Virus record (IMG/VR): IMGVR_UViG_2671180254_000003
Source: a virus
Taxonomy: Duplodnaviria; Heunggongvirae; Uroviricota; Caudoviricetes
DNA length: 5,862 nucleotides
Reading direction: 5' to 3' (one strand)
Positions within the stretch are counted from its first letter, which is position 1; the number at the start of each line of letters is the position of its first letter. Positions 1 to 5,862 of the stretch are shown piece by piece. Under the pieces are notes generated by a model, which worked only from the letters and a program-made list of their open reading frames with translations, was not told where the DNA came from and did not search any database. The translations under genes and the position numbers were made by a program.

Positions 1-117
1 TAGCTCCTTCTGATGCCATTCTATTTCAGGAAGGAGTGTCCGTTAAACTCAGGCTACCTCAGGTTATTCGCTTCTGGGCATGGGCGGATCAACAAATGAT
101 AGACGGTAATGCAGATT

Positions 118-136
118 GTAACGCTCGCGGCGTTAC
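118..136. repeat. Palindrome GTAACGC-tcgcg-GCGTTAC inside the replication gene; candidate initiator-binding site (ori element)
   Basis: Perfect 7-bp inverted half-sites around a 5-nt spacer. The same half-site recurs at 327-345 and 361-367. Confidence 0.3.
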
Positions 137-326
137 AAAAAGTGCAATAGATCGCATCACTTTTATGTCTGGTTTTGCTGATGCGTTAATTCAGGTTGGA
201 TGGCTGGTCGAAAATGACGGAGGGCTTTCTCTACCTAACTTTGAACGTCATAACGGAAAAAGCTCTAAAAAAAACGGGCGGTTACAAACGAGCGAGTAAC
301 AAAAATACGCGAACTGAAACGAAAAG

Positions 327-345
327 GTAACGCTGCCAGCGTTAC
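327..345. repeat. Palindrome GTAACGCTG-c-CAGCGTTAC; candidate ori/iteron element within the replication gene
   Basis: Perfect 9-bp inverted repeat with 1-nt spacer. Followed by another GCGTTAC half-site (361-367), a (GAGGAA)x3 repeat (371-388) and two GATC sites (389-392, 401-404). Preceded by an A-rich stretch (300-325). Confidence 0.35.
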
Positions 346-744
346 ACAAACGGATCAAAAAGCGTTACCAGAGGAAGAGGAAGAGGAAGATCTAAATACT
401 GATCTCCCCCTCGCCAAAAACGAGCGTCTAAAAAATTCGAGCCGGAGGCTATTGAGCTGCCCGATTGGTTGCCGGAAACACTCTGGCATGAGTGGGTCCG
501 GTTCAGACAGGCATTGCGAAAACCGATTCGAACGGAGCAGGGCGCTAACGGGGCGATACGGGAACTGGAAAAATTCCGTCAGCAGGGTTTTACACCTGAG
601 CAGGTGATTCGACACAGCATCGCCAATGAATACCAGGGCCTGTTCGCGCCGAAAGGTGTTCGGCCTGAGACGTTGCTCCGACAGGTTAACACCGTCTCGT
701 TGCCGGACAGTGCGATCCCGCCAGGCTTCAGGGGGTAACGGACC

Positions 745-1491
745 ATGAAAAATATTGCGACAGGCGGCGTTCTGGAACGCATCCGCCGACTGACCCCGCC
801 ACATGTAACCGCCCCATTCAGAACGGTAGCGGAGTGGCGCGAGTGGCAACTTGCTGAAGGCCAGAAACGTAGCGAGGAGATCAACCGCCTGAATCGCCAG
901 TTGCGGGTGGAAAAAATTCTGAATCGCTCAGGCATCCAGCCGTTGCACCGTAAATGCTCGTTTGCGAATTACCAGGTGCAGAACGACGGCCAGCGATACG
1001 CGTTAAGCCAGGCGAAATCCATCGCCGATGAACTGATGACCGGGTGTACAAATTTTGCGTTCAGCGGAAAACCTGGTACCGGGAAGAATCACTTAGCGGC
1101 AGCTATCGGGAATCGCCTGCTGAAAGACGGTCAGACAGTGATTGTGGTTACCGTGGCTGATGTTATGAGCGCCCTGCACGCCAGCTATGACGACGGGCAG
1201 TCAGGCGAAAAATTTTTGCGGGAGCTGTGCGAAGTGGATCTGCTGGTTCTTGATGAAATTGGCATTCAGCGCGAGACGAAAAACGAGCAGGTGGTGCTGC
1301 ACCAGATTGTTGATCGCCGGACAGCGTCGATGCGCAGCGTGGGGATGCTGACAAACCTGAACTATGAGGTGATGAAAACATTGCTCGGCGAGCGGGTGAT
1401 GGATCGCATGGTCATGAACGGCGGGCGCTGGGTGAATTTTAACTGGGAGAGCTGGCGTCCGAATGTTAGCCATTCGAGGGTTGTTAAGTAG
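745..1491 (+). CDS. DnaC-like replicative helicase loader (prophage YdaV-like AAA+ ATPase)
   Basis: 248-aa ORF with Walker A motif GKPGTGKNH, Walker B-like LLVLDEIG and DnaC-like overall architecture. ATG 745 lies 6 nt after the upstream stop with a G-rich RBS (AGGGGG 730-735). Confidence 0.9.
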   Translation: MKNIATGGVLERIRRLTPPHVTAPFRTVAEWREWQLAEGQKRSEEINRLNRQLRVEKILNRSGIQPLHRKCSFANYQVQNDGQRYALSQAKSIADELMTGCTNFAFSGKPGTGKNHLAAAIGNRLLKDGQTVIVVTVADVMSALHASYDDGQSGEKFLRELCEVDLLVLDEIGIQRETKNEQVVLHQIVDRRTASMRSVGMLTNLNYEVMKTLLGERVMDRMVMNGGRWVNFNWESWRPNVSHSRVVK

Positions 1492-1505
1492 TTTCAGGAG
1501 GATTT

Positions 1506-1928
1506 ATGGCGAAACCTTTTACTCCCGAACAGCGGGAAGAACTGAAGACGCGAATTGTGGAACTCGTGCATCAGGACGGTCGGGTCACGATTCGGCAGTT
1601 GTCAGATGAAACAGGTATCAGTCGTGCGTCTGTCGGTCGCTTATGCATAGAACTGGTCGCAAGTGGTGATGTATATAATTCTGGCTACGGCTTATTCCCG
1701 TCTGAACAGGCTCGCAAGGACTGGCAAAGCGCCCGCAAAAAACTCTCGAGAGTAAAGGTGAGGAAACCGGTTGTTGTTGATCCGGACCTTATCTGGTCAT
1801 TACCTGACGGAGAAATACGCCGCTACGACAGGCGCCTGAATATAATCTGTCGCGAGTGCCGGAAGAGCGAAGCTATGCAGCGTGTACTGGCTTTCTATCA
1901 GGGTAATTTTCAGGAGGCGATACTGTGA
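1506..1928 (+). CDS. Winged-helix/HTH DNA-binding protein (prophage, DUF977-like; family uncertain)
   Basis: 140-aa ORF with strong SD CAGGAGG (1495-1501) 4 nt before ATG 1506. HTH-like segment VTIRQLSDETGISRASVGRLCIELVASGDV. Stop TGA 1926-1928. Confidence 0.75.
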   Translation: MAKPFTPEQREELKTRIVELVHQDGRVTIRQLSDETGISRASVGRLCIELVASGDVYNSGYGLFPSEQARKDWQSARKKLSRVKVRKPVVVDPDLIWSLPDGEIRRYDRRLNIICRECRKSEAMQRVLAFYQGNFQEAIL

Positions 1929-1985
1929 ATGAAATTAGCTATCAGGCTTCAATTACCGCTGGCATTCGCATCAAAGGAGAGGAGC

Positions 1986-2342
1986 ATGGAAATAAAACCA
2001 GAAGATGAGTTAAGCAATATCGTTTTATTTCCGGTAAAAGAGGATGACCCTCGTAATCAGGTTAATTTTCTTTATGAGCCATCGGAAAGACCATATTGCC
2101 ATCACGCCTCTGTACGGGTTGACGAAAAAGAGCGTCAGGTCCGCTGTAAAATCTGCGGTGCGGTTGTGGAGCCGTTTGACTGGATGCTCTCTGTGGCAAA
2201 AAGAGAAACCAGACTGGCAGATGATGTAAGGCTATTGCGCCAGGAGGAACAGGAAAGGCGGAGAAATATAGAAAAGCTGATACAGATTGAGCGTAACGCG
2301 AAAGCGCGGATACGCAGGGCGACAAAATCCAGAACTGAATAA
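1986..2342 (+). CDS. Zinc-ribbon protein with basic coiled-coil-like C-terminus (hypothetical phage protein)
   Basis: ATG 1986 preceded by AGGAG (1975-1979, 6-nt spacing). Contains CHH...x13...CKIC putative Zn-binding motif. An alternative in-frame ATG at 1929 (137-aa version) abuts the upstream TGA and has SD AGGAGG at 1912-1917 with a long 11-nt spacer. Confidence 0.6.
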   Translation: MEIKPEDELSNIVLFPVKEDDPRNQVNFLYEPSERPYCHHASVRVDEKERQVRCKICGAVVEPFDWMLSVAKRETRLADDVRLLRQEEQERRRNIEKLIQIERNAKARIRRATKSRTE

Positions 2343-2489
2343 TTAAATTTAGCACTGTTAAAAATTTAATCCTTAACCGGAGGGATTTCTGCACCCTCAA
2401 ATCATCAGGAGACCACCCGAAAGGGCGGGGAGCAGTCACACATCTGTTTCCGATAGCCCCGTTCTAATGCTACACTCTTTGATATTTTT

Positions 2490-3176
2490 ATGACCCCAAT
2501 AAACATATTTATGACAGTTGCTGATTTCAAACGGCCCAAATTGGAGCTCCCAAACGGGGCAAACAAACTACTACTGCACTCTTGCTGTGCTCCATGTTCC
2601 GGTGAGGTGATGGAGGCGCTTCAGGCCTCGGGAATCGACTACACCATCTTTTTCTACAACCCGAACATTCATCCTCAGAAAGAGTATTTAATTCGTAAGG
2701 ATGAGAATATTCGCTTTGCTGAACAACACGGCGTGCCGTTTATTGATGCTGATTACGACACAGACAACTGGTTTGAACGAGCCAAAGGAATGGAATGGGA
2801 GCCCGAACGAGGGATCCGTTGCACCATGTGTTTTGACATGCGTTTTGAGCGGACAGCGCTGTACGCCGCTGAAAATGGTTTCAGTGTGATCAGCAGTTCA
2901 CTGGGCATTTCACGCTGGAAAAATATGCAGCAGGTTAACGACTGTGGGCGGCGAGCCGTCGCGCATTATCCGGGCATGGTGTACTGGGATTATAACTGGC
3001 GCAAGCAGGGCGGCTCGTCCCGTATGATTGAAATCAGCAAGCGCGAAAAATTCTATCAGCAGGAATATTGTGGCTGTGTGTATTCTCTGCGCGATACCAA
3101 TCTACACCGCAAATCTCAGGGACGCCCTCTTATCAAAATTGGTCAACTCCACTACGGTAAAGAAGAGAAGGAGTGA
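2490..3176 (+). CDS. queH: QueH-like epoxyqueuosine reductase family protein (DUF208, Fe-S enzyme)
   Basis: 228-aa ORF with the DUF208/QueH hallmark motifs as recalled from memory: [45 protein letters not shown]. Start could be ATG 2490 or 2511; neither has a clear SD. Confidence 0.8.
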
Positions 3177-3197
3177 TTTTATGGGGCACCTTTCTGA

Positions 3198-3227
3198 TTG
3201 ATTTCATATTGGCGAGGTAAGTAGAAT
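3198..3227 (+). promoter_or_regulatory. Putative sigma70 promoter for hok-type transcript copy 1 (-35 TTGATT, 18-nt spacer, -10 TAGAAT)
   Basis: TTGATT 3198-3203 and TAGAAT 3222-3227 place a transcription start near 3234, the start of the tac-like sequence CTGCGGGTGCTTGAGG. Confidence 0.35.
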
Positions 3228-3321
3228 GACTGCGGGTGCTTGAGGCTATCTGCTTCAGGCATGAACACCAAAAGGCAGATAGAGAAAAGCCCCAGTTAAC
3301 ATTACGCGTCCGGCAAGACGC
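3211..3321 (+). promoter_or_regulatory. hok-type mRNA 5' leader, copy 1 (tac-like element plus conserved stem-loop); downstream body lost in assembly gap
   Basis: About 90 nt closely similar to 5355..5460 (CTGCGGGTGCTTGAGGCT...AGAGAAAAGCCCCAGTTAACATTACGCGTCC.GCAAGACGC). Contains stem CTATCTGC/GCAGATAG (3246-3253 / 3275-3282). Runs directly into the N run. Confidence 0.6.
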
Positions 3322-3574
3322 NNNNNNNNNNNNNNNNNNNNNNNNNNNNNNNNNNNNNNNNNNNNNNNNNNNNNNNNNNNNNNNNNNNNNNNNNNNNNNN
3401 NNNNNNNNNNNNNNNNNNNNNNNNNNNNNNNNNNNNNNNNNNNNNNNNNNNNNNNNNNNNNNNNNNNNNNNNNNNNNNNNNNNNNNNNNNNNNNNNNNNN
3501 NNNNNNNNNNNNNNNNNNNNNNNNNNNNNNNNNNNNNNNNNNNNNNNNNNNNNNNNNNNNNNNNNNNNNNNNNN
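3322..3574. other. Assembly gap (253 N)
   Basis: Uninterrupted run of N. ORFs 3236..3577 and 3255..3701 in the track are artefacts of translating N. Confidence 0.99.
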
Positions 3575-3694
3575 TAATTTTTGTCTGGATAATCGGAAAA
3601 ATAATTGAGCCAGTTATTGAATTGTATAACGACGTGGTATGGGCGTCATTCAACACACTGCACAATAAAATTAATCCGTATAAGGAAAGCTGAT

Positions 3695-4060
3695 ATGGCA
3701 CTGACGAAAAAACAACGTGCAGAACTGCGCATGAAGTTCGGTGGTCGCTGCGCTTATTGCGGCTGCGAACTTGGCGAAAAGTGGCATGCAGACCATGTAA
3801 AACCGGTCATTCGTTTTGATGGAAATATGCTTCACCAGGAACGTGACGATATATCCAACATGGTACCAGCATGCCACCCATGCAATCTGCACAAGCATTG
3901 CAGTAGCCTGGAAGATTATCGACGAATTATCAGTGATGGTCGTCGTGAATTCCTTGCGTCCGGGAAAGGCAAAGCGCTGGTTCGTATGGGATTGGTTGAA
4001 ATGAAATCTGACCCGGTTGTGTTCTGGTTTGAAAAATATCAAGAAGGGGCTACGGCATGA
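3695..4060 (+). CDS. HNH endonuclease
   Basis: 121-aa ORF from ATG 3695 with SD AAGGA (3682-3686). HNH motifs CAYCGCEL, WHADHVKPV, VPACHPCNLHK. The track's longer version starts at TTG 3605 with no RBS. Confidence 0.85.
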   Translation: MALTKKQRAELRMKFGGRCAYCGCELGEKWHADHVKPVIRFDGNMLHQERDDISNMVPACHPCNLHKHCSSLEDYRRIISDGRREFLASGKGKALVRMGLVEMKSDPVVFWFEKYQEGATA

Positions 4061-4722
4061 CCACTATTACCAAAGAGCGACTGCAATGGCTGGCTAACAT
4101 TTCTGGCCGCGATGATATTGACGATATAGACGGCGGTGAAATTCGTGAACTGGCGCTTATCGCTCTGGCATCACTGGAAGCAGAGCCTGTAGCGGAATGC
4201 ATTGTTGAAGATGGGGGCATGTGTATTGACGGGTTCGGTGAGTATGTGGGTCACTCGCTGCCTGATGGAATGCATGAGCTTTATGCTGCCCCGCGAATGC
4301 GACAACCTGATGGATGGAAAGCCGTAGCTGTAGCGTGGAAGGTGACGTTTACTCAAGTTGACCAGGAATCTAATACGTTCACTGCTATATATTTTGACAA
4401 AGCGGAAGTTGAGTGTTGGGTACGACTGCATAAAGCATGTGATTTTCGGGCAGATATAACACCGCTTTACGCAGCGCCGGCAGTGCCGGTTGCAGTAAAC
4501 GACGACATGGCTTACGCATTCCATCACGCACTGTCAGATTCATCGCTTGGCTCTGATGAAATCGAAGAAATTAAAACCGGTTTGCGTGCTGCCTTTGCCA
4601 ACGTCACTATCCAACCAGAGCCGATAGTGCCGGATGAAATCGGGCCAAACGATAGTAATACGTTTGATTATGTTGATGGCTGGAACGCCTGCCGCGCTGC
4701 CATGCTTAAGGGAGATAAATAA
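4057..4722 (+). CDS. Hypothetical phage protein (221 aa) with two LYAAP motifs
   Basis: ATG 4057 overlaps the HNH stop (ATGA), indicating translational coupling. Acidic N-terminus; LYAAP at codons 75-79 and again about 60 residues later (nt 4279-4293 and 4465-4479), encoded with different codons. Confidence 0.8.
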   Translation: MTTITKERLQWLANISGRDDIDDIDGGEIRELALIALASLEAEPVAECIVEDGGMCIDGFGEYVGHSLPDGMHELYAAPRMRQPDGWKAVAVAWKVTFTQVDQESNTFTAIYFDKAEVECWVRLHKACDFRADITPLYAAPAVPVAVNDDMAYAFHHALSDSSLGSDEIEEIKTGLRAAFANVTIQPEPIVPDEIGPNDSNTFDYVDGWNACRAAMLKGDK

Positions 4723-5087
4723 TGATTAATCGAACCAAACTGGAGCACATTCTCGAATATGCCAGGCAGCAGAAATGTATTGGGCAACTTTGTAAAATTC
4801 CACCAGGAGATATGGTTGAAATCGTGGAAATGGCCATGCGTAAGGCTGGCAACTCTCCGGTAGCTCCGGCTGGCTGGATAAGCTGTAGTGATGCAGTTCC
4901 TGCTGAATATTGCGATGTGATTCTTCTCGATGATCTCGGGAATGTATTCCCCGGTTCCTGGGATAAGGTTTTTTGCCCCACTCGTGGCGGGAATAAGATG
5001 GCTTTTGTGGACAAAGACGGCGTTGAAGTAGAGAGCTCAACTCACTGGATGCCGCTACCGGAACCACCGCAGGAGGTGAATCAATGA
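4722..5087 (+). CDS. DUF551-family prophage protein
   Basis: 121-aa ORF; start overlaps the upstream stop (TAATG) with SD GGGAG upstream. C-terminal WISCSDAVPAEYCDV...STHWMPLPEPP matches the DUF551 pattern. Confidence 0.85.
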   Translation: MINRTKLEHILEYARQQKCIGQLCKIPPGDMVEIVEMAMRKAGNSPVAPAGWISCSDAVPAEYCDVILLDDLGNVFPGSWDKVFCPTRGGNKMAFVDKDGVEVESSTHWMPLPEPPQEVNQ

Positions 5088-5167
5088 CCTGGCCTGAGGC
5101 ATTCACCACGGTAGGAATTGCGATGGCGGTGGCGCTGGTGGTGTATTCGATTTGCCGTTGGGGTTAA
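5084..5167 (+). CDS. Small hydrophobic peptide (27 aa, MTWPEAFTTVGIAMAVALVVYSICRWG), predicted single transmembrane helix
   Basis: Not in the ORF track (too short). ATG 5084 overlaps the DUF551 stop (ATGA) and is preceded by a strong SD AGGAGG (5071-5076, 7-nt spacing). Stop TAA 5165-5167 is followed within about 10 nt by an intrinsic terminator. Confidence 0.55.
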   Translation: MTWPEAFTTVGIAMAVALVVYSICRWG

Positions 5168-5172
5168 CAAAC

Positions 5173-5203
5173 AAAAACCCCGGATTGATGGTCCGGGGTT
5201 TTT
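5173..5203 (+). terminator. Rho-independent terminator (possibly bidirectional)
   Basis: A5 (5173-5177), stem CCCCGGA (5178-5184) / TCCGGGG (5192-5198) with 7-nt loop, then T5 (5199-5203). Confidence 0.8.
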
Positions 5204-5354
5204 GAAGGAAACAAAACAGAAACAGCAATTGCCGTTACCTGTTGTTACCATGGCAAGTAAACGTATCTCAGGCGAGCGCATTGCGCCGTTCTGACGCAGA
5301 TAAACTAGCCTGGATAGATGGTGCTGGCAATAAAAAATAGCGTTTTCTTATCGG

Positions 5355-5484
5355 TGTCGGTAAGATTGCTGCGGGTGCTTGAGGCTGTCTGCCTCGGGTA
5401 TGTCACTGTAAGGCAGACAGAGAAAAGCCCCAGTTAACATTACGCGTCCTGCAAGACGCTTAACATTAATCTGAGGCCCAATCT
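5355..5484 (+). promoter_or_regulatory. hok-type mRNA 5' leader, copy 2 (putative -10 TAAGAT at 5361-5366, tac-like element 5369-5386, stem-loop 5385-5420, mok upstream region)
   Basis: tac-like CTGCGGGTGCTTGAGG is complementary to the 3' fbi-like sequence at 5749-5764. Stem CTGTCTGCC/GGCAGACAG (5385-5393 / 5412-5420). Leads into the mok/hok reading frame. Confidence 0.7.
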
Positions 5485-5697
5485 ATGTCTCACAAATGTA
5501 GGTTAGCCTCTTACGTGCCGAAAGGCAAGGAGAAGCAGGCTATGAAGCAGCAAAAGGCGATGTTAATCGCCCTGATCGTCATCTGTTTAACCGTCATTGT
5601 GACGGCACTGGTAACGAGGAAAGACCTCTGCGAGGTACGAATCCGAATCGGCCAGACGGAGGTCGCTGTTTTCGTAGACTACGAATCTAGAGAGTAA
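5485..5697 (+). CDS. mok: Mok-like regulatory reading frame (70 aa), in frame with and containing hok
   Basis: ATG 5485 opens the only frame open across the hok start. Length matches chromosomal Mok-type frames (recalled from MokC, which is an N-terminally extended HokC). Whether it is translated is inferred. Confidence 0.5.
   Translation: MSHKCRLASYVPKGKEKQAMKQQKAMLIALIVICLTVIVTALVTRKDLCEVRIRIGQTEVAVFVDYESRE
5542..5697 (+). CDS. hok: Hok/Gef-family type I toxin (HokD/RelF-like small membrane protein, 51 aa)
   Basis: MKQQKAMLIALIVICLTVIVTALVTRKDLCEVRIRIGQTEVAVFVDYESRE shows the Hok family signature (TM helix, LTRK.LCE.R...EVA.F..YES). SD AAGGAG sits 8 nt upstream of ATG 5542. Confidence 0.9.
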   Translation: MKQQKAMLIALIVICLTVIVTALVTRKDLCEVRIRIGQTEVAVFVDYESRE

Positions 5698-5704
5698 GAG
5701 TGAC

Positions 5705-5728
5705 CAGGCGGGAGAGTAATCTCCCGCC
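5705..5728 (+). other. Stable hairpin just after the hok stop (GGCGGGAGA-GTAA-TCTCCCGCC)
   Basis: Perfect 9-bp GC-rich stem with GNRA-type tetraloop; no immediate U-run. Probably a 3' UTR structural element of the hok mRNA. Confidence 0.5.
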
Positions 5729-5743
5729 ACCTTTGATGTGTCA

Positions 5744-5765
5744 GGCATCCTCAACGCACCCGCAC
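5744..5765 (+). promoter_or_regulatory. fbi-like (fold-back inhibition) element complementary to the 5' tac-like element
   Basis: CCTCAACGCACCCGCA (5749-5764) pairs with TGCGGGTGC-TTGAGG (5370-5384): 9 bp plus 6 bp around a single bulge. This is the 5'-3' pairing architecture of hok mRNAs. Confidence 0.6.
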
Positions 5766-5770
5766 TTAAC

Positions 5771-5789
5771 CCGTTTCGGCGGTTTTTTT
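5771..5789 (+). terminator. Possible 3' end of hok transcript (short GC stem plus T7 run)
   Basis: CCG-tttc-GGCGG followed by TTTTTTT (5783-5789). Stem is weak; the IS1 end abuts immediately. Confidence 0.3.
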
Positions 5790-5862
5790 GGTAATGACTC
5801 CAACTTATTGATAGTGTTTTATGTTCAGATAATGCCCGATGACTTTGTCATGCAGCTCCACC
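5790..5862 (-). mobile_element. IS1 insertion sequence, terminal 73 nt including inverted repeat; element continues beyond window end
   Basis: GGTAATGACTCCAACTTATTGATAGTGTTTTATGTTCAGATAATGCCCGATGACTTTGTCATGCAGCTCCACC matches the IS1 terminus as recalled. The minus strand encodes the InsB C-terminus. Confidence 0.9.
5805..5862 (-). CDS. insB: IS1 transposase InsB, 3' end (partial, continues beyond window)
   Basis: Minus-strand translation gives ...VELHDKVIGHYLNIKHYQ followed by stop (TAA, complement of 5805-5807). Confidence 0.8.
   Translation of the reverse strand, partial: VELHDKVIGHYLNIKHYQ

What the first reader, a model, noticed from the sequence alone, without database searches (positions are those of the whole stretch)
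3211..3321. Second hok leader copy with a compensatory base-pair change; the two copies bracket the HNH-DUF551 operon
3230..3321 and 5369..5460 are ~85-90% identical direct repeats about 2.1 kb apart. In the shared stem-loop, copy 1 pairs CTATCTGC with GCAGATAG and copy 2 pairs CTGTCTGCC with GGCAGACAG: an A-to-G change in the 5' arm is matched by T-to-C in the 3' arm, keeping the helix while the loop sequence diverges. That covariation argues for selection on RNA structure in both copies. The arrangement also means the intervening HNH/DUF551/peptide operon is flanked by homologous sequence that could mediate deletion or cassette exchange.
Basis: seen in the sequence. Interest (0 to 1): 0.5.

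Follow-up and report, generated by a model that had tools for sequence, protein, structure and literature searches.

The report
Two hok leaders joined by scaffolding
The repeated stem-loop is the well-known 5' leader of the hok/sok toxin-antitoxin mRNA, present once in each of two different prophages, and the two copies only appear to flank the HNH-DUF551 genes because a draft assembly joined two contigs across a run of N.

Summary
The repeat is real: 3230-3321 and 5369-5460 are 88% identical. The compensatory change is real too: A3248-U3280 in copy 1, G5387-C5418 in copy 2. Both copies are the 5' end of hok mRNA, the tac/ucb "tac-stem" hairpin (Rfam RF01794). In 42 distinct hok leaders this exact pair covaries most (AU 25, GU 6, UA 6, GC 4, one mismatch). 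Covariation in hok leaders has been published since 1997, so this is known biology.

Copy 1 is not a remnant. In complete genomes whose sequence is 100% identical to window 1-3321, the leader continues into an intact mok/hok gene with its fbi element (RF01794, 117 bits).

The bracketing is very probably not physical. Window 1-3321 and 3575-5862 each match, at 100%, two loci about 1.18 Mb apart in one complete genome (CP019689.1). Three other complete genomes hold them 0.44-0.72 Mb apart. None of 5,426 complete E. coli genomes has the two flanks adjacent. Both window ends are IS stubs, and the 253-N run matches the nominal gaps of sister draft assemblies.

What survives of the "cassette exchange" idea is ordinary lambdoid mosaicism. 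A conserved gene on the left and hok on the right bound one slot that carries different cargo in different prophages.

The parts
1..61 (.). Stub of an IS3-family insertion sequence at the left end of the window (the outer end of contig X).
   Evidence: It matches at 100% several IS ends per locus, next to HTH_Tnp_1/rve genes.
1939..2428 (+). Segment 'R1' (a 118/137-aa hypothetical gene). It is shared at 99% by prophage A and prophage B, and it is the left boundary of the variable cargo slot.
   Evidence: Window 1939-2428 matches L002 3405-3894 at 98.98%, while the replication genes to its left are only 90% identical.
2490..3176 (+). QueH (epoxyqueuosine reductase), the cargo of prophage A.
   Evidence: Annotation; Pfam PF02677.
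3198..3227 (+). Promoter-like site of hok copy 1 (TTGATT, 18-nt spacer, TAGAAT). It places the transcription start near 3234.
   Evidence: 1 site found against 0.1 expected. The start position is inferred from Rfam model position 1.
3234..3293 (+). Copy 1 of the hok mRNA 5' hairpin (the tac-stem-loop). tac is 3234-3241, the ucb/anti-SD part is 3287-3293, and the inner stem is 3246-3255 with 3273-3282. The covarying pair is A3248-U3280.
   Evidence: RF01794 positions 1-58, 53.9 bits, E 2.9e-10. MFE -24.1 kcal/mol, z -3.5. Pair counts.
3238..3260 (+). Alternative 'metastable' hairpin of the nascent transcript: tac region 3238-3246 pairs with 3252-3260.
   Evidence: 96% of cells are paired in 42 leaders, against 23-52% when slid. 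The concept comes from PMC9841398.
3294..3321 (+). Start of the second leader hairpin. On the minus strand this is the 3' end region of the Sok gene. It is cut off by the gap.
   Evidence: Identical to L006 5805-5832, which continues into the rest of the leader.
3322..3574 (.). Run of 253 N: a scaffold gap joining contig X (prophage A) to contig Y (prophage B).
   Evidence: Sister draft assemblies carry 240-284-N runs whose length does not track the true gap.
3577..3693 (+). 3' fragment of the DUF4014 gene (prophage B); its 5' part lies in the gap.
   Evidence: L002 CDS 3901-4119 and its alignment to the window.
3695..5087 (+). Cargo of prophage B: HNH endonuclease (3695-4060), a 221-aa protein (4057-4722) and a DUF551 protein (4722-5087).
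   Evidence: Annotation; Pfam.
5373..5547 (+). Copy 2: the complete hok mRNA leader. The hairpin is 5373-5431 and the covarying pair is G5387-C5418.
   Evidence: RF01794 positions 1-157, 118.1 bits against a gathering score of 59. MFE -30.3 kcal/mol, z -5.3.
5485..5697 (+). mok ORF (70 aa), in frame with hok (5542-5697, 51 aa).
   Evidence: ORF list; PF01848 HOK_GEF on the identical gene.
5749..5763 (+). fbi element of copy 2 (CCTCAACGCACCCGC), complementary to the 5' tac region.
   Evidence: The full-length MFE pairs the first 13 nt with this stretch; z -7.4.
5790..5862 (.). Stub of an IS1 end, inserted directly after the T-run of the hok-2 terminator (the outer end of contig Y).
   Evidence: 100% identical to L017, where a full IS1 (DDE_Tnp_IS1) follows.

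Best explanation
[quoted passage not shown] It belongs to a different Rac-like lambdoid prophage ('A': replication genes, R1, QueH, hok) from the one carrying copy 2 ('B': R1, DUF4014, HNH, 221-aa protein, DUF551, hok).

The shared stem-loop is the tac-stem of hok mRNA. The 5' tac sequence pairs with ucb (the anti-Shine-Dalgarno of mok) around a constant inner stem. In the full-length mRNA, tac pairs instead with the 3' fbi element. In the nascent transcript, tac pairs with the sequence just downstream. The A-U to G-C change sits in the inner stem and is the usual signature of selection on this fold.

The window itself is a two-contig scaffold. Contig X is 1-3321, running from an IS stub to the hok-A leader. 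Contig Y is 3575-5862, running from inside DUF4014 to an IS1 stub. A scaffolder linked them across paralogous repeats shared by the two prophages. The apparent bracketing of the HNH-DUF551 genes by two hok leaders is therefore an assembly artefact.

Shown here: the identity of both halves, the intact downstream hok where the gap is closed, the covariation, and the folds. Inferred: the reason the scaffolder joined them, and the function of the two loci.
For: 1. RF01794 matches copy 2 at full length (118.1 bits) and copy 1 over model positions 1-58 (53.9 bits). The ungapped equivalent of copy 1 in L006 scores 117 bits over 1-157.

2. Window 1-3321 is 100% identical to L005 and L006. There the leader continues into mok/hok (PF01848), an fbi element and a terminator.

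3. Window 3575-5862 is 100% identical to L017, including the IS1. L005 and L017 are the same complete genome, CP019689.1, about 1.18 Mb apart.

4. The same two loci lie about 718 kb apart in FDAARGOS_944. They lie about 436 kb apart in ECMA0423 and about 470 kb apart in S. flexneri SFBU1023.

5. None of 5,426 complete E. coli genomes has both flanks in one place; the best coverage was 52%.

6. Of 80 IMG/VR contigs with QueH, 79 have the hok leader right after it and 64 have the hok body. None has cassette B within 4 kb. Of 14 cassette-B loci, none has QueH or a hok-leader motif in the available upstream sequence (183-1600 nt per locus).

7. Both window ends are IS stubs of 61 and 73 nt, whereas the two ends at the gap carry no IS bases. 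Contig X ends inside the stretch where the two leaders are almost identical (60 nt with one mismatch, 3281-3340). Sister assemblies carry 240-284-N runs for true gaps of 318-452 nt.

8. Covariation: 95.1% of cells are paired against at most 54% when slid. The pair at alignment columns 15/48 shows AU 25, GU 6, UA 6, GC 4, other 1. The metastable alternative is 96% paired.

9. The full-length folds show tac-fbi pairing and ucb-SDmok pairing, with z -7.4 and -8.6. This is the published model (PMC9841398).
Against: I could not find the source assembly or its reads, so the adjacency is not directly disproved for that strain.

A scaffolder had some reason to link X to Y. One independent IMG scaffold (UViG_2681813268_000003, L072 plus L154) also places A before B in the same orientation. 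In that scaffold, however, A continues 857 nt beyond window 3321, through a complete hok-A, and B starts 420 nt before window 3575. Its junction content therefore cannot fit the window's gap.

The length of the N run says nothing either way.

No Sok promoter passed the consensus scan. Activity of either locus is untested.
Confidence: 0.87

Rival explanations
1. The scaffold is right. In the source strain the two hok loci really lie in tandem on one prophage, flanking the DUF4014-HNH-DUF551 cassette as direct repeats that could delete or exchange it.
For: The scaffolder joined X to Y in this order and orientation. One IMG scaffold does the same. The N-run length is uninformative, so a longer true gap holding the rest of hok-A is not excluded.
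Against: - Both halves lie 0.44-1.18 Mb apart in four complete genomes, at 99-100% identity to the window.
- No adjacency was found in 5,426 complete E. coli genomes.
- Among IMG/VR loci, 0 of 80 QueH contigs and 0 of 14 cassette-B loci show the other element nearby.
- A tandem layout cannot arise by homologous recombination between A and B. It would need an illegitimate junction, and no IS bases flank the gap.
- The IMG scaffold's junction content (857 + 420 nt) does not fit the window's gap, and its contig ends sit in repeats shared by A and B.
- Other scaffolds of this kind contain single-N joins and a 51-nt IS1 stub in mid-'contig'.
Confidence: 0.07
2. Copy 1 is an orphan: a decayed hok leader with no toxin gene behind it.
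For: Within the window nothing follows it but N. Decayed leaders do exist elsewhere; for example, L027 lacks the tac motif.
Against: - Every gap-free sequence identical to window 1-3321 continues into an intact 51-aa Hok with an in-frame mok, an fbi element and a terminator.
- RF01794 scores 117 bits at full length on that sequence.
- 64 of 80 IMG/VR QueH contigs have the hok body directly after the leader.
- Copy 1 has a better promoter match than copy 2.
Confidence: 0.03
3. The hairpin is something other than a hok leader, for example a terminator or attenuator of the upstream QueH gene that merely resembles copy 2.
For: It lies 58 nt downstream of the QueH stop codon and is a strong hairpin.
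Against: - There is no U-tract after the stem.
- A promoter-like site sits between QueH and the hairpin.
- The sequence matches the hok leader model from position 1.
- The same hairpin follows unrelated cargo genes in other prophages.
Confidence: 0.01

Closest known systems
hok/sok of plasmid R1 (type I toxin-antitoxin; tac, fbi, ucb, dcb and a metastable 5' hairpin)
   Same: Both have a 5' tac sequence that can pair with ucb, with a 3' fbi element, or with the region just downstream. In both, ucb masks the mok Shine-Dalgarno, and a small hydrophobic Hok toxin (PF01848) lies downstream (model as summarised in PMC9841398).
   Different: The loci here are in chromosomal prophages, not on a plasmid. 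mok is in frame with hok here. The second leader hairpin carries an extra GCGUC...GACGC insert that is absent from many family members. The Sok promoter was not detected by consensus scan. No activity data exist for these loci.
Chromosomal and prophage hokD-type loci of E. coli and Shigella
   Same: The Hok proteins are 90-96% identical, NCBI annotates them as HokD, and they sit in Rac/Qin-like lambdoid prophages between the replication genes and the NinB/DUF1367-Q region. hok is reported to be enriched in prophages and often multi-copy (bioRxiv 10.1101/2025.08.07.668861).
   Different: Some hokD-type loci (L028, L056, L062) have no leader motif upstream at all. Both loci here keep the complete leader.
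Published covariation analysis of hok-family mRNAs (Gultyaev, Franch and Gerdes 1997, J Mol Biol 273:26, as cited in PMC9841398)
   Same: That analysis used the same kind of evidence, compensatory changes in alternative pairings of the 5' end, to establish the folding pathway.
   Different: I could not read the 1997 paper itself. Whether it lists this exact pair is not checked. My counts on 42 leaders are independent of it.
Modular (mosaic) exchange in lambdoid phages
   Same: Conserved flanks (R1 at 99% and hok at about 90%) surround alternative cargo. The cargo is QueH in one prophage, DUF4014-HNH-221aa-DUF551 in a second, and DUF4014-87aa-55aa-114aa in a third.
   Different: This is a comparison between separate prophages, not a repeat-flanked cassette within one genome. 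The recombination itself is inferred.

Membership tests
[quoted passage not shown] | Match to the RF01794 covariance model at or above its gathering score (59 bits). | tested here: met
   Copy 2 scores 118.1 bits over positions 1-157. Copy 1 in the window scores 53.9 bits over positions 1-58 only, because N follows. The identical ungapped copy, L006 5745-5920, scores 117 bits over 1-157.
[quoted passage not shown] | A Hok/Gef toxin ORF (PF01848) downstream of the leader, with an overlapping mok ORF. | tested here: met
   Copy 2: hok is 5542-5697 and mok is 5485-5697; HOK_GEF is recorded on the identical gene. Copy 1: the ORF is not in the window (gap), but it is present and intact in L005, L006 and L001, which are 99.5-100% identical to window 61-3321 (L005 and L006 to 1-3321).
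[quoted passage not shown] | Long-range tac-fbi pairing and ucb-SDmok pairing in the full-length mRNA. | tested here: met
   The MFE folds of window 5373-5788 and L006 5744-6191 pair the first 13 or so nt with CCUCAACGCACCCGC near the 3' end, and pair GCCCCAG with CUGAGGC. z-scores are -7.4 and -8.6. This is prediction only.
[quoted passage not shown] | A tac-stem (tac/ucb) hairpin and an alternative metastable 5' hairpin, both conserved with covariation. | tested here: met
   Tac-stem: 95.1% paired, 3 pairs with changes on both sides, 0 of 500 shuffles reach the score. Metastable hairpin: 96.0% paired against at most 52% when slid.
[quoted passage not shown] | An antisense Sok RNA gene with its own promoter opposite the mok start region. 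| tested here: inconclusive
   No minus-strand promoter passed the scan. By position there are TTGCCT, a 17-nt spacer and TAACCT on the minus strand at 5532-5503. The TTGCCT complement is invariant in the alignment but overlaps the hok Shine-Dalgarno. The comparison with the R1 promoter is from memory.
[quoted passage not shown] | Toxicity of Hok and post-segregational killing or Sok-dependent control. | not testable with these tools
   This needs expression and rifampicin or plasmid-loss assays.
   The link is a 253-N run. The flanks lie 0.44-1.18 Mb apart in four complete genomes. No adjacency was found in 5,426 complete E. coli genomes or in the IMG/VR loci checked. The source strain itself could not be examined.

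The most novel reading that the evidence does not exclude
The hok/sok module and the R1 gene may act as fixed recombination anchors around a hypervariable cargo slot in Rac-like prophages. At least three cargo sets occupy this slot: QueH; DUF4014-HNH-221aa-DUF551; DUF4014-87aa-55aa-114aa. Homology resumes within about 20 nt of the hok promoter. R1 is 99% identical between prophages whose neighbouring genes are only 90% identical, which looks like a recent exchange. The addictive toxin-antitoxin locus would then also protect whatever cargo sits next to it. The stricter reading, a true tandem hok-cassette-hok in the source strain, is not fully excluded either (about 0.07).
Probability: 0.3. Interest if true: 0.3.

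Novelty: already known. Interest (0 to 1): 0.1.

Why it matters
It matters mainly as a caution. A run of N inside a prophage-rich draft genome can place paralogous modules in series and create apparent repeat-flanked cassettes.

The RNA part confirms known biology: hok leaders are under strong structural selection, with compensatory changes in the tac-stem. It adds a clean family-wide count showing that the flagged pair is the most variable yet almost always paired position.

The comparative by-product is of modest interest for prophage mosaicism and for where phages keep moron genes. It is the variable cargo slot bounded by R1 and hok.

Tried and rejected
- **Gap length as an argument: rejected.** I first argued that 253 nt is too short to hold the rest of hok plus the start of DUF4014. 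Sister assemblies use runs of about 250 N for true gaps of 318-452 nt, so the length carries no information.
- **N run as a deliberate mask of a contiguous sequence: rejected.** The window ends are IS stubs, the N run matches the style of sister drafts, and the flanks map to different loci.
- **A hidden IS junction in the gap: rejected.** Contig ends next to IS elements keep 61-73 nt of IS sequence, whereas the two ends at the gap carry none.
- **IS1-flanked cassette B as a composite transposon: rejected.** The upstream IS1 has its own duplication of about 10 bp (window equivalent 2002-2011). The downstream IS1 sits in the terminator T-run. These look like independent insertions.
- **Finding the source assembly: failed.** The contig look-up returns the longest contigs first, so a 5.9-kb scaffold never surfaced.
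- **Exact-motif count of hok ORFs behind QueH: discarded.** The pattern was too strict and most loci were missed (A side). I used the BLAST-based count instead.
- **Consensus promoter scan for Sok and for the copy-2 hok promoter: found nothing**.
- **Gultyaev 2000 (PMC1370018): not held**. The 1997 paper was not available either.
- **R-scape is not offered.** I used the count of structure pairs with its shuffle and slide controls.

Full report
**1. The observation.**
The window is 5,862 nt with one run of 253 N at 3322-3574. Positions 3230-3321 and 5369-5460 are direct repeats: 92 aligned columns, 10 mismatches, one 1-nt gap, 88% identity, E about 1e-25. Copy 1 pairs CTATCTGC with GCAGATAG, and copy 2 pairs CTGTCTGCC with GGCAGACAG. 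A3248-U3280 in copy 1 corresponds to G5387-C5418 in copy 2. Each 60-nt hairpin folds far better than shuffled controls: -24.1 kcal/mol (z -3.5) and -30.3 kcal/mol (z -5.3). None of the roughly 11 substitutions between the copies breaks a pair of the hairpin. The sequence-level observation is correct.

**2. What the repeat is.**
Rfam RF01794 is named "sok antitoxin", but here it matches the hok-sense strand. It hits copy 2 at full length (5373-5547, positions 1-157, 118.1 bits; gathering score 59). It hits copy 1 over positions 1-58 (3234-3293, 53.9 bits), where the match stops because the leader runs into N. Copy 2 is followed by a 70-aa mok ORF, in frame with a 51-aa hok (5485/5542-5697). Pfam HOK_GEF is recorded on the identical gene.

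A promoter-like site (TTGATT, 18 nt, TAGAAT; 3198-3227) sits just upstream of copy 1. The published model is summarised in PMC9841398. The 5' tac element pairs with the 3' fbi element in the inactive full-length mRNA. It pairs with ucb, the anti-SD of mok, in the processed active mRNA, forming the "tac-stem". It pairs with the region just downstream in a transient metastable hairpin.

The repeat is this tac-stem. In copy 1, tac is 3234-3241, ucb is 3287-3293, and the inner stem is 3246-3255 with 3273-3282. MFE folds of the full-length RNAs reproduce the closed form: tac pairs with fbi (CCUCAACGCACCCGC, window 5749-5763), the inner stem is kept, and ucb pairs with the mok SD. z-scores are -7.4 for copy 2 (window 5373-5788) and -8.6 for the ungapped copy 1 (L006 5744-6191).

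**3. Is the compensatory change meaningful?**
I collected hok loci from one genome per species (47 loci) plus loci fetched earlier. I then aligned 42 distinct leaders with MAFFT, without reference to structure. The organisms are Escherichia, Shigella, Kluyvera, Citrobacter, Photorhabdus, Pantoea, Erwinia and Kalamiella.

- For the tac-stem, 95.1% of cells form standard pairs, against 32-54% when the 3' partners are slid by 1-3 columns. None of 500 shuffles reaches the covariation score.
- The alternative metastable hairpin (columns 5-13 with 20-28; window 3238-3246 with 3252-3260) is 96.0% paired, against 23-52% when slid.
The three differences there between the copies (U/C, A/G, C/U) are all wobble-compatible.

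Selection on RNA structure is therefore well supported. It is also established knowledge: covariation in hok-family mRNAs was published in 1997 (Gultyaev et al., cited in PMC9841398).

**4. Closing the gap by comparison.**
Window 1-3321 is 100% identical to L005 (CP019689.1) and L006 (CP000038.1). There the leader continues without interruption into mok/hok, an fbi element and a terminator, followed by Rem and DUF1367 genes. RF01794 scores 117 bits at full length on that sequence. In 80 IMG/VR contigs carrying this QueH at 99% identity or better, 79 have the hok leader directly after QueH and 64 also have the hok body. Copy 1 is thus the start of a complete hok/sok locus, not a remnant.

**5. 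The arrangement.**
Window 3575-5862 is 100% identical to L017, which is from the same complete genome, CP019689.1. L017 lies about 1.18 Mb from L005. Its layout is IS1, R1', DUF4014, HNH, 221-aa protein, DUF551, hok, IS1.

Three further complete genomes separate the two loci:

- In E. coli FDAARGOS_944 the two flanks match at 99.5% and 99.7% and lie about 718 kb apart. The left flank runs QueH to an intact hokD. The right flank runs DUF4014-HNH-hypothetical-DUF551 to hok.
- In ECMA0423 the QueH-hok and DUF551-hok loci are about 436 kb apart.
- In S. flexneri SFBU1023 they are about 470 kb apart.

A search with window 2700-4300 found no complete E. coli genome, out of 5,426, with both flanks in one place; the best coverage was 52%. 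None of the 80 QueH contigs has cassette B within 4 kb. None of 14 cassette-B loci has QueH or a hok-leader motif in the available upstream sequence (183-1600 nt per locus); most have the end of R1 there.

**6. Why the window looks the way it does.**
- The window starts with a 61-nt stub of an IS3-family element and ends with a 73-nt stub of IS1. That is what a whole small scaffold from a short-read assembly of an IS-rich genome looks like.
- Draft assemblies fetched with the same QueH (the CW... accessions) are full of 240-284-N runs. These stand for true gaps of 318-452 nt and fall in regions about 90% similar between paralogous prophages.
- Prophages A and B share R1 (window 1939-2428) at 99% and the hok locus at about 90%. 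Between those flanks they carry different cargo.
- Contig X ends at 3321, inside the 60-nt stretch (3281-3340) where the two leaders differ at one position only.
- This is a branch in the assembly graph (R1, then cargo A or cargo B, then hok) that the scaffolder laid out in series.
- Other public scaffolds do the same kind of thing:
  - L008 places QueH, 278 N, part of a third cassette, then hok. In a complete genome that third cassette follows DUF977 and DUF4014, not QueH.
  - L158 has single-N joins and a 51-nt IS1 stub inside a "contig".
  - L156 runs from the A-type left arm through R1 straight into cassette B.
- One IMG scaffold (L072 plus L154) also places A before B. There A continues 857 nt past window 3321, through the complete hok-A, and ends in the DUF1367 region shared with B. 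B starts 420 nt before window 3575, inside R1'. That content cannot fit the window's gap as drawn.

I could not reach the source reads. A genuine tandem in that one strain is not formally excluded, and I give it about 7%.

**7. What remains of the interpretation.**
Deletion or exchange through two hok repeats flanking the operon in one phage has no support. A weaker form of the idea does hold. The slot between R1 and the hok promoter carries QueH in one prophage. It carries DUF4014-HNH-221aa-DUF551 in another, and DUF4014-87aa-55aa-114aa in a third. Homology resumes within about 20 nt of the hok promoter. This is ordinary lambdoid modular mosaicism, with hok as one conserved flank. The recombination itself is inferred.

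**8. Comparison with what is known, and verdict.**
Both loci meet the testable criteria for hok/sok: the leader model, the Hok ORF with mok, tac-fbi and ucb-SD pairing, and both 5' hairpins with covariation. The Sok promoter is inconclusive by consensus scan, and activity is untestable here. hok genes are reported to be multi-copy and enriched in prophages (bioRxiv 10.1101/2025.08.07.668861). The finding is therefore a correct reading of a known RNA element combined with an arrangement that is, with high probability, an assembly artefact. Interest is low.

Noticed in passing
window 1-61 and 5790-5862: Both ends of the window are short stubs of insertion sequences: an IS3-family end on the left and an IS1 end on the right. 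The window therefore looks like an entire two-contig scaffold from a short-read assembly of an IS-rich (Shigella-type) genome.
   Followed up: yes
window 5783-5799; L002 6200-6225: IS1 is inserted directly after the T-run of the hok-2 terminator; 7 of 8 T's are kept, and the fbi element and stem are intact. From memory (Pedersen and Gerdes 1999), IS elements next to chromosomal hok loci have been linked to their inactivation in K-12. Here the mRNA elements appear untouched.
   Followed up: partly
L003 5745-5931 (CP000036.1): This copy-1-type leader carries a 14-nt tandem duplication (GGCTATCTGCTTCA twice) inside the tac-stem hairpin. This should change the 5' fold of that hok mRNA.
   Followed up: no
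L032 532-703 (E. coli SCPM-O-B-8794): This is the only leader of 42 with a non-standard pair (A.C) at the covarying position. Its closest relative, L033 (Kluyvera), has A-U. It may be an intermediate on the way to G-C.
   Followed up: no
window 5485-5697; L006 5858-6070: In both loci the mok ORF is in frame with hok, so a 70-aa product would contain the whole Hok. Gene callers report either the 70-aa or the 51-aa product for the same gene.
   Followed up: no
window 5373-5547 and 3234-3293: Rfam RF01794 is named 'sok antitoxin', but it matches the strand that encodes mok/hok. What it models is the hok mRNA leader, with Sok encoded opposite part of it.
   Followed up: partly
window 1939-2428 versus 430-1942: R1 is 99% identical between prophages A and B, while the replication genes just to its left are only 90% identical. 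This sharp step in identity suggests a recent recombination joint.
   Followed up: partly
window 2429-3229; L002 3895-5794; L070 2594-3700: Three unrelated cargo sets occupy the same slot just upstream of the hok promoter in related prophages: QueH; DUF4014-HNH-221aa-DUF551; DUF4014-87aa-55aa-114aa.
   Followed up: partly
window 5084-5204: A 27-aa hydrophobic ORF (MTWPEAFTTVGIAMAVALVVYSICRWG, 5084-5167) overlaps the DUF551 stop codon. It is followed by a strong two-way terminator-like hairpin at 5172-5204 (13 pairs).
   Followed up: no
L156 (IMGVR_UViG_2695420820_000001), 1-4778: A gap-free contig joins the A-type left arm (99.96% to window 16-2428) through R1 directly to cassette B, with no QueH. 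It is either a real recombinant at R1 or an assembly chimera through the 99% repeat.
   Followed up: no
L037, L039, L069: Tiny contigs labelled Acinetobacter idrijaensis (275 nt), Xanthomonas pisi (431 nt) and a 'Candidatus Scatousia' MAG (2,995 nt) carry hok sequences nearly identical to the E. coli type. This is most likely contamination of those assemblies.
   Followed up: no
L027 511-706; L028, L056, L062: Decayed or leaderless hokD-type loci exist. L027 has lost the tac motif. L028, L056 and L062 have an unrelated sequence upstream of hok and no leader at all.
   Followed up: no
L096 (IMG/VR): One QueH-linked hok copy has a premature stop at codon 4 (MKQ*KAML...), so it is an inactivated toxin gene behind an otherwise normal leader.
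   Followed up: no
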